From Eledone cirrhosa (Eukaryota), in the NCBI GenBank assembly GCA_964016885.1, contig CAXHJY010000705.1:1-64000 (forward strand): a DNA stretch of 64,000 nt, written 5' to 3'. Numbering within the stretch: position 1 is the first letter of the stretch; every line of letters begins with the position of its first letter. This document shows positions 5,438-5,643 of the stretch, in pieces. Below the pieces are notes generated by a model that saw nothing but the letters and a program-made list of their open reading frames with translations, made no database searches and was not told where the DNA came from. The position numbers were made by a program, and so were the translations under genes.

Positions 5438-5442
<5 letters not shown>

Positions 5443-5641
5443 TGTATGACCCCGACGGCAGAGTTCAAGCCGTTTCGACGGCTATTTCTGGACTAACAAA
5501 TAGCCGACCAGAAATAGCCGTCGAAACGGCTTGATCTCTGCCGTCGGTGTCATACATTTTCCTATTACCCACTCTACTACCCTAAGTATTGAGTACTCTG
5601 GTGCGTAATGGTCCATCTGGTTCCTTACCACAATTCCTTCG

Positions 5642-5643
<2 letters not shown>
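5438..5643 (+). mobile_element. Family A asymmetric fold-back element (copy 1)
   Basis: ~55-bp inverted arms around ttctgg...ccagaa; long arm carries the ACTC/GAGT stem-loop (5571-5594) and ends in (TA)n. Confidence 0.85.

What the first reader, a model, noticed from the sequence alone, without database searches (positions are those of the whole stretch)
5438..5643. Family A: fixed fold-back apex and fixed short-arm end, with arms co-varying inside each copy
Seen: five copies (5438, 12072, 13333, 17894, 56253) turn at the same point (gacggctaattctgga|tccagaattagccgtc GAAAC). The short arm stops at or next to ttcctat, where it merges into (TA)n (GA repeat in copy 1). Variants are shared between the two arms of one copy but differ between copies (gtatgac; aacaagtaa; aaccagtaa), and apex filler differs in each copy. 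No copy has CTGANGA; the arm begins with what looks like the 3' strand of HHR stem II plus GAAA. Inference: the second arm is made at each insertion by cDNA snap-back self-priming on the stem II hairpin and resolved by TA microhomology.
Basis: partly seen in the sequence, partly recalled or inferred. Interest (0 to 1): 0.7.

Follow-up and report, generated by a model that had tools for sequence, protein, structure and literature searches.

The report
Penelope-derived fold-back repeats with fixed ends
A short mirror-image repeat sitting in TA microsatellites likely derives from the end-piece of a Penelope-like jumping gene, and its two arms are likely copied separately from one RNA at each insertion, which would make it a ready test set for how these elements build their inverted ends.

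Summary
The five palindromic copies are real, and the window also holds two solo arms. Family A is a ~135-nt piece: the 3' half of a hammerhead (GAAA-stem III-GUC), a fixed short-arm end, a ~78-nt tail, then (TA)n. The tail opens with a bulged hairpin (RYTC-stem-NN-GAGYRC; 15 hits against 0.77 by chance). Other hammerhead-bearing elements in the window share it, as do 3 of 6 published Hydra-clade Penelope-like (PLE) consensi. In 10 of 13 fold-backs examined, from six families, the short arm ends within -1 to +9 nt of this hairpin, some after passing longer TA runs. The short-arm end is therefore likely a PLE reverse-transcription start site, not a TA-microhomology stop. Best model: both strands of (TA)n are nicked, two cDNAs are primed at two RNA sites, stop at a fixed point and are joined head to head. 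Arm co-variation holds but is thin: 5 of 6 shared sites come from one copy. No CTGANGA parent was found. Head-to-head PLE copies with a tail, and a self-priming explanation, are already published. The fixed apex and the conserved hairpin appear new in the searches run.

The parts
5439..5493 (-). Copy 1 short (tail-less) arm; ends at the (GA)n/(TA)n run
5494..5507 (.). Copy 1 apex filler: templated re-copy of the arm end carrying copy 1's own variant, plus a few untemplated bases
5508..5643 (+). Copy 1 long arm with tail; separate subfamily (5 variants shared by its two arms)
5523..5545 (+). Hammerhead 3' half in copy 1 (GAAA, stem III, GUC); predicted cut after 5545; no CUGANGA partner
5571..5597 (+). 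Conserved bulged hairpin (RYTC-stem-NN-GAGYRC) at the start of the tail, copy 1
12072..12208 (-). Copy 2 long arm with tail (hairpin 12117-12143)
12209..12219 (.). Copy 2 apex filler: 9-nt re-copy of the arm end plus 2 nt
12220..12278 (+). Copy 2 short arm
13333..13387 (-). Copy 3 short arm, reaching the common apex
13391..13491 (+). Copy 3 long arm, starting at or 2 nt before the predicted ribozyme cut (13393); hairpin at 13418
17894..18032 (-). Copy 4 long arm with tail (hairpin start 17967)
18034..18089 (+). Copy 4 short arm, 4 nt shorter at the apex; intact 6-bp stem III
56254..56391 (-). Copy 5 long arm with tail (hairpin start 56326)
56392..56450 (+). Copy 5 short arm; near-perfect palindrome centre
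36056..36192 (-). Copy 6: diverged solo long arm, starting at the same apex position, in (TA)n
3355..3412 (+). Copy 7: diverged solo tail-less arm between short TA runs
14996..16087 (+). Context: 5'-truncated Hydra-type PLE ORF (RT thumb, CxCX5C linker, GIY-YIG region); candidate class of mobilising enzyme
17242..17432 (+). Context: complete hammerhead, same tail hairpin (17348) and tail, downstream of that ORF with no (TA)n break between
4249..5290 (-). Context: second 5'-truncated Hydra-type PLE ORF remnant next to copy 1; no DNA similarity to Family A

Best explanation
Family A is a short head-to-head repeat in (TA)n microsatellites that likely derives from the 3' end of a Hydra-clade Penelope-like element, and its two arms are likely made at each insertion from two separately primed cDNAs that would be joined at a fixed stop point. 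Shown: a hammerhead 3'-half motif, a fixed short-arm end, a ~78-nt tail opening with a conserved bulged hairpin, (TA)n on both sides, no ORF. Inferred steps: (1) a Hydra-type RT/GIY-YIG protein acting in trans binds the RNA at the hairpin; (2) it nicks both strands of the self-complementary (TA)n target; (3) one strand primes at the tail end (long arm) and the other just 5' of the hairpin (short arm), helped by 1-5 nt of TA pairing; (4) both cDNAs stop about 17 nt upstream of GAAA, because the RNA starts there or because an RNA stem (native stem II, or the fold-back of a palindromic source copy) re-zips and releases them; (5) host end-joining links the two 3' ends, trimming 0-4 nt and adding re-copied filler. 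Priming once gives the solo arms. The copies are predicted not to self-cleave alone, because the CUGANGA strand is absent.
For: Tail hairpin: 15 hits against a mean of 0.77 (max 3) in 30 local shuffles; 15 of 34 motif pairs have an upper stem of 3 bp or more against 44 of 889 in shuffles; upper-stem pairs differ between families. Out of sample, read by eye after the motif was first seen: exact in 3 of 6 published Hydra consensi, a variant in 1, absent in 2; Hydra-1_Ajap begins 2 nt before it (PMC8557442 File S7). Short arm ends -1 to +9 nt from the hairpin in 10 of 13 fold-backs examined. Solos exist of both arm types. The extra 5' sequence belongs to the tail-less arm in 4 of 4 resolvable large spacers. 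Six copy-shared and 0 arm-specific sites, with 13 unconverted private differences. Hydra-type ORFs in the window (E 4e-49 and 2e-24 to P0013; P0013 has RWK, DKS and CxCX5C). Literature: a purified Poseidon PLE cuts and extends both target strands and starts RT at two internal sites that bound the tail (PMC11167929, main text). Inverted 5'-truncated copies, one-sided tails and (TA)n targeting are described for PLEs including Hydra (PMC8557442).
Against: No parent extending 5' of the apex was found, so the cause of the fixed stop is unproven (0 hits in two scans of bacterial/archaeal genomes, an unsuitable collection). Co-variation is not significant without copy 1 (3 of 24). Apex features follow the T/G subfamily site: short arms of copies 2 and 5 start at -16, those of 3 and 4 at -13, and apex 5 equals apex 2 minus 11 nt. 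This fits unit inheritance, though 1 of 3 pairings would match by chance. 4:0 spacer asymmetry is p=0.125 two-sided, the 17532 spacer could not be assigned (266 of 1000 shuffles), and copy 4 shows a 4-nt excess on the long arm. The descriptor was drawn up after looking at window sequences. Look-alikes occur in two Naiad consensi, so the hairpin is not shown to be Hydra-specific. The tail is about twice the usual 30-40 bp. The in vitro work is on another clade and does not address inversions.
Confidence: 0.5

Rival explanations
1. Unit inheritance: a few palindromic source copies are transcribed and reverse-transcribed whole from the tail end through the apex into (UA)n. Fillers diversify later by breakage at the palindrome centre, and arms are re-made or converted only when a subfamily is founded.
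For: Explains fixed apex, fixed short-arm end and TA flanks at once. Apex 5 is apex 2 minus 11 nt with AC microhomology, and short-arm starts follow the T/G site. Centre-break revision of palindromes is a named process (PMC3300023, two passages). Whole copies fold into hairpins of -110 to -118 kcal/mol (4 of 5).
Against: 0 arm-specific sites; three subfamily states need at least two re-makings that landed on the same apex. Copy 1's filler carries copy 1's own variant, so it was made anew. Unrelated fold-backs (30171, 17532, 38064, 63266, 61413, 61939) show the same layout arises readily de novo. No three- or four-arm Family A copy among 7.
Confidence: 0.2
2. Hybrid: the cDNA primed at the hairpin base (short arm) snaps back and copies itself to make the head of the long arm, then anneals to a second cDNA primed at the tail end on the other strand.
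For: Predicts that spacers belong to the tail-less arm (4 of 4). Copy 3's junction fits a 2-nt snap-back. Fillers in copies 1 and 2 can be read as aborted snap-backs. Self-priming is proposed in PMC3846280.
Against: Copy 4's long arm has 4 apex bases its short arm lacks. It needs three synthesis steps. It still requires two RT start sites, so it differs from the best model only in how the long-arm head is made.
Confidence: 0.14
3. One reading: one cDNA primed at the tail end snaps back on hammerhead stem II, copies itself, and is resolved at the first TA microhomology.
For: In Family A the short arm ends at the first TAT of the common sequence. Long stem IIs are common here, and arms at 38064 and 61939 are cut off within stem II. 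Arms co-vary.
Against: The short-arm end tracks the hairpin in six families, skipping 9-nt TA runs in two and lacking TA overlap in one. Short arms carry 5' sequence absent from long arms in 4 cases. A native stem II loop should be constant among copies 2-5 and is not. A solo tail-less arm exists. No CTGANGA-GACGG parent.
Confidence: 0.08
4. Different parent: Family A comes from, or is moved by, a Naiad (N-terminal endonuclease) PLE rather than a Hydra element. This changes the enzyme, not the arm mechanism.
For: Naiads also target (TA)n and lack canonical hammerheads. The published octopus Naiad 3' ends have a stem closing just before GAAAC with no CTGANGA upstream and a loosely similar 3' context (by eye). 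Hairpin look-alikes occur in Naiad_Ptep and Naiad_Mmer.
Against: The 3' ends of Naiad_Obim, Naiad_Ovul and Naiad_Omin show no such hairpin by eye, and Obim and Ovul carry CTGATGA downstream of GAAAC, which Family A lacks. The two PLE ORF remnants identified in the window are C-terminal-endonuclease, Hydra-type.
Confidence: 0.1
5. A DNA fold-back element or MITE, or an assembly artefact.
For: Long inverted repeat and TA flanks.
Against: The inverted repeat does not reach both termini (78-nt one-sided tail); solo arms exist; the tail motif is shared with hammerhead-bearing PLE ends; arms have diverged within copies.
Confidence: 0.03

Closest known systems
Hydra-clade Penelope-like elements (Craig et al. 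2021, PMC8557442; passages, section 11, supplement parts 1, 2, 23, 24, 52, 53 read)
   Same: (TA)n targeting; hammerhead just upstream of the unit end; inverted 5'-truncated copy at the 5' end (listed for Penelope-13_HM); one-sided tail; the same bulged hairpin after the hammerhead or at the unit start in 3 of 6 consensi (my reading by eye).
   Different: Family A has no ORF, only the 3' half of the hammerhead, a longer stem III, a fixed rather than random 5' end, and a ~78-nt tail.
Adineta vaga Penelope inverted pLTRs (Arkhipova et al. 2013, PMC3846280; passages read)
   Same: Head-to-head inverted pLTRs with a palindrome at the junction and an optional tail on one arm.
   Different: There explained by self-priming, possibly on an antisense template. 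Here the data favour two primings. Those elements are full-length and have target-site duplications.
Anolis Poseidon PAc in vitro system (Frangieh et al. 2024, PMC11167929; main text to start of Methods read, supplements not read)
   Same: Two internal RT start sites bounding the tail, start in a stem-loop, both target strands cut and extended, uncleaved RNA as the main template.
   Different: Another clade; inversions were not studied; the link to fold-backs is my inference.
Non-LTR retrozymes (bioRxiv 10.64898/2026.07.22.740005; first fifth and passages read, supplements closed) and PLE minimal hammerheads (PMC4209133; passages read)
   Same: Short non-coding PLE pLTR derivatives with type I hammerhead sequence and a palindromic loop 3.
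   Different: Retrozymes are head-to-tail tandems with complete hammerheads; Family A is head-to-head with half a ribozyme.
L1 twin priming (recalled, no call)
   Same: Both target strands prime reverse transcription, giving an inversion.
   Different: In L1 the two cDNAs cover different parts of the RNA. Here they overlap, giving an inverted duplication with fixed starts.

Membership tests
Hydra-clade PLE (autonomous) | Single ORF with RT, CxCX5C linker and C-terminal GIY-YIG | tested here: not met
   Family A is about 135 nt with no such ORF; ORFs with the linker lie elsewhere in the window. Family A is filed as a derivative, not an autonomous member.
Hydra-clade PLE (autonomous) | Canonical type I hammerhead in the pLTR | tested here: not met
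   Only GAAA-stem III-GUC is present; no CTGANGA partner; no Rfam match at gathering score.
Hydra-clade PLE (autonomous) | Insertion into (TA)n | tested here: met
   7 of 7 copies have TA runs on both sides; short ones for copy 7, (GA)n interposed in copy 1.
EN+ PLE insertion architecture | Inverted 5'-truncated copy joined head to head | tested here: met
   5 of 7 copies.
EN+ PLE insertion architecture | Fixed tail on one arm only (30-40 bp in the literature) | tested here: met
   Present and fixed but longer: hairpin start to (TA)4 is 71-75 nt in 5 of 5.
EN+ PLE insertion architecture | Mobilised by a PLE RT/endonuclease | not testable with these tools
   Inferred from the shared hairpin and from ORF remnants nearby.
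Naiad PLE | N-terminal endonuclease ORF, or 3' end homologous to a Naiad | tested here: inconclusive
   No ORF; only by-eye comparison with published Naiad ends.
Non-LTR retrozyme | At least two head-to-tail units, each with a complete hammerhead | tested here: not met
   Head-to-head or solo; half ribozyme.
MITE / fold-back DNA transposon | Terminal inverted repeats at both ends | tested here: not met
   The tail lies outside the inverted repeat; solo arms occur.
MITE / fold-back DNA transposon | Target-site duplication | not testable with these tools
   Cannot be read inside (TA)n.
tRNA-derived SINE | tRNA-like head | tested here: not met
   ARAGORN 0 genes; Rfam 0 at gathering score.

The most novel reading that the evidence does not exclude
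Family A is a self-perpetuating fold-back retroelement. The palindromic RNA of a source copy forms a 58-bp duplex whose loop stops the Penelope RT, and twin priming from a conserved hairpin and from the tail end rebuilds the palindrome at the same apex in every daughter. The apex would be inherited as RNA structure rather than sequence, and the bulged hairpin would be the long-sought cis signal for Hydra-clade retrotransposition and the cause of PLE inverted ends.
Probability: 0.2. Interest if true: 0.75.

Novelty: new variant of a known kind. Interest (0 to 1): 0.44.

Why it matters
How Penelope-like elements form tandem and inverted ends is named as an open question in PMC8557442. Family A and its neighbours tie the fixed short-arm end to a conserved RNA hairpin and to the two-start-site result obtained in vitro, which gives a specific model. 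At 7 copies in 64 kb the family may be very abundant (extrapolation from one window), so arm phylogenies and junction spectra could separate twin priming, snap-back and unit inheritance from sequence alone. The hairpin is a candidate cis element for directing a Hydra-type RT/endonuclease. The overall architecture is already known for PLEs, which caps the surprise.

Tried and rejected
Rfam at gathering score: 0 hits. Rfam at E up to 10: 688 matches, of which the 150 listed were microsatellite- or hairpin-driven miRNA and similar noise, with no hammerhead among them; 538 were not shown. Direct- and inverted-repeat finders were swamped by microsatellites. Two exact-pattern scans of bacterial and archaeal genomes found nothing. 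Viral and metagenome contig collections stayed unchecked, and no animal genome collection was available, so the genome-wide test was not run. Family A motifs were absent from the Craig 2021 supplement (0 for three 14-nt terms). Pfam gave nothing for the PLE ORF pieces or for P0001 and P0013, so clade was read from motifs. A type II (permuted) hammerhead reading was rejected by eye: no CTGANGA downstream in any copy. Ongoing arm-to-arm gene conversion was rejected: within-copy divergence in copies 2-5 (11/179) is no lower than tail divergence between them (18/456). The 17532 spacer could not be assigned to either arm. The 12443 alignment landed on microsatellite and is uninformative. A MAFFT alignment of the hairpins misplaced the 5' strand, so no covariance model was built. 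Family A is not the 3' end of the adjacent PLE at 4249-5290 (no BLAST hit). Literature searches turned up no description of this family, of a fixed apex or of the hairpin; 'hairpin' occurs 0 times in the main text of PMC8557442 and 'stem-loop' 0 times in its supplement. Repbase, Dfam and subscription papers were not searchable, and unseen supplements (bioRxiv preprint, PMC11167929, PMC3846280) could bear on the novelty claim.

Full report
Observation. The window is AT-rich, microsatellite-dense DNA that looks like an animal genome; the organism was not determined. BLAST of copy 1 against the window finds the five palindromic copies at the stated places plus two solos: a long arm at 36056-36192 and a tail-less arm at 3355-3412. 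In the orientation that reads GAAAC, each long arm has about 17 nt, then GAAA, a stem III of up to 6 bp with a palindromic loop, GUC, 20 nt to the short-arm end, a ~78-nt tail and (TA)n. Eleven of 12 arms begin 10-17 nt upstream of GAAA; the long arm of copy 3 begins at or 2 nt before the predicted cut. Short arms end 5 nt (copies 2-5) or 9 nt (copy 1) before the tail hairpin.

Arm co-variation. Among the 10 arms of the palindromes (solos left out), 6 columns are shared by both arms of a copy and differ between copies, and none separates long from short arms. Within-copy mismatch is 13/233 against 103/928 (long-short), 56/403 (long-long) and 50/523 (short-short) between copies; 3 of 120 permutations are as low. 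Five of the six columns are copy 1's. Without it the result is 3 of 24 and rests on one site. Private differences between arms of copies 2-5 (11/179) are no fewer than differences between their tails (18/456), so arms are not being homogenised now. The shared variants are source variants, and both arms were copied from one strand at least once per subfamily. That they are re-made at every insertion is likely but not shown.

The ribozyme half. GAAA-stem III-UH with 5 bp or more appears in 20 of 5000 shuffles of the copy 4 short arm; 6 bp are observed. It sits 48 nt upstream of the tail hairpin. A motif with 4 bp or more lies 47-94 nt upstream of the hairpin at 11 of 14 sites examined, several with a CTGANGA core on at least one arm. 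The other half is missing in Family A (0 matches), Rfam finds nothing at gathering score, and no longer parent was found.

What it is. The window holds many other fold-backs with a one-sided tail, mostly in or beside (TA)n: 9719, 17532, 30171, 38064, 61413, 61939, 63266. It also holds two 5'-truncated ORFs matching ~700-aa proteins with the RWK, DK(S/T) and CxCX5C features of the Hydra clade. Their tails and Family A's share a bulged hairpin, RYTC-stem-NN-GAGYRC: 15 hits at 14 loci against a mean of 0.77 in 30 shuffles, with different base pairs in the upper stem between families. Copy 6 and the 38064 element carry variants that miss the descriptor. The descriptor was drawn from window sequences, so the independent check matters: by eye it is exact in Hydra-2_Amil, Hydra-2_Ajap and at the very start of Hydra-1_Ajap, a variant in Hydra-1_Crog, and absent from Hydra-1_Amil and Hydra-1_Obim (PMC8557442 File S7). 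Two Naiad consensi have look-alikes, so it may be wider than Hydra. I put the PLE origin of Family A at about 0.9 and a Hydra parent at about 0.8.

The short-arm end. In 10 of 13 fold-backs examined (five Family A, 30171, 38064, 63266, 61413, 61939) the short arm ends -1 to +9 nt from the hairpin. 17532 has a decayed version by eye, 9719 has none, and the 12443 alignment failed. The 38064 and 63266 short arms pass 9-nt TA runs 61 and 66 nt before ending, and 17532 ends with no TA overlap. The end therefore follows an RNA landmark. A purified Poseidon PLE starts RT at two internal sites that bound the genomic tail and extends both target strands (PMC11167929). I infer that the short-arm end and the tail end are such sites. 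In Family A itself the end coincides with the first TAT of the common sequence, so TA pairing may help priming.

How the arms join. Snap-back of a tail-primed cDNA can only give a short arm contained in the long one. In 4 of 4 resolvable large spacers the extra native 5' sequence is on the tail-less arm: copy 3 (36 nt), 38064 (core and stem II), 61939 (stem I and decayed core) and 9719 (74 nt matching the tandem unit). Against this, the count is small (p=0.125), 17532 is unresolved, copy 4 has 4 nt more on the long arm, and later one-sided deletions could mimic the pattern. Fillers in copies 1, 2 and possibly 4 re-copy the end of the arm from a GAC repeat 14 nt back, and copy 1's filler has copy 1's own variant, which points to a free 3' end at the apex each time. 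Copy 3's long arm starting at the predicted cut hints that a cleaved RNA was once used, but it is one event with a 2-nt ambiguity.

The fixed apex. This is what sets Family A apart; in other families 5' ends vary from inside stem II to far upstream. Three causes remain open: a short RNA that starts there, a native long stem II that releases the cDNA (as at 38064 and 61939), or the fold-back of a palindromic source copy. Unit inheritance is a live rival, because apex 5 is apex 2 minus 11 nt and short-arm starts follow the T/G site, a 1-in-3 coincidence.

Comparison and verdict. Head-to-head inverted copies with a tail are standard for endonuclease-bearing PLEs (PMC8557442), and self-priming was proposed for them in 2013 (PMC3846280). 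Family A works like a PLE pLTR insertion but fails membership as an autonomous Hydra element, a retrozyme, a MITE or a tRNA SINE. The fixed apex, the half ribozyme and the hairpin anchor were not found in the searches run. Repbase, Dfam, closed journals and several supplements were not seen. Verdict: a real feature and a new variant of a known kind, interest 0.44.

Noticed in passing
window 9719-10848, 12443-12940, 58227-58539, 53964-54025: A second family with a complete minimal type I hammerhead, arranged as an inverted tail-less copy next to head-to-tail units of about 420 nt; retrozyme-like; lacks the tail hairpin.
   Followed up: partly
window 30171-30378 and 19738-19860: A family resembling Family A: 3' hammerhead half, same hairpin, 11-nt identical tail motif, apex about 25 nt upstream of GAAA, with a one-mismatch core in both arms.
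   Followed up: partly
window 17532-17852, 38064-38331, 61413-61673, 61870-62081, 63180-63550: Five more fold-backs with a one-sided tail and full or decayed hammerheads with long stem II; used as the comparison set.
   Followed up: yes
window 8969-9723 and 16913-17436: Hammerhead-bearing 3' end downstream of the Hydra-type ORF, present again as an inverted-plus-direct pair that is interrupted by the 9719 element.
   Followed up: partly
window 14604-14771 and 14985-15152: A 168-nt piece of the PLE RT-thumb region is duplicated (98.8% identical) with (TA)n between the copies.
   Followed up: no
window 2930-3350 (-) and 3355-3412 (+): Copy 7 lies head to head with a different hairpin-bearing, tailed element, separated by about (TA)5; either two insertions in one repeat or a two-RNA fold-back.
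   Followed up: no
window 56757-56845, 6500-6570 (-), 29420-29560 (-): Solo PLE-like ends: a textbook minimal hammerhead, another complete core, and a very short copy with hairpin and tail only.
   Followed up: partly
window 28162-28357, 29049-29239, 31724-31802, 35627-35723, 36695-36875, 42455-43210, 44701-44759, 61700-61887: A ~185-nt SINE-like dispersed repeat, about ten full or partial copies at 75-92% identity, some in tandem; not identified.
   Followed up: no
window 24900-26800 (-): Probable LINE remnant: ORF1-like frames followed by an AP-endonuclease-like start, by eye only; Pfam found nothing on three nearby frames.
   Followed up: no
window 32888-34593 and 43272-44297: A 106-bp satellite (16 copies) and 123/71-bp tandem repeats that keep an open frame resembling a LINE RT tail (resemblance recalled; Pfam hits below cut-off).
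   Followed up: no
window 7362-7702, 26052-26119, 60240-60435: Further inverted repeats with spacers, not characterised.
   Followed up: no
PMC8557442 File S5, 3' ends of Naiad_Obim and Naiad_Ovul: GAAAC precedes CTGATGA by about 25 nt, with a stem closing before GAAAC: possibly a permuted hammerhead behind the paper's 'half core' label (by eye).
   Followed up: no
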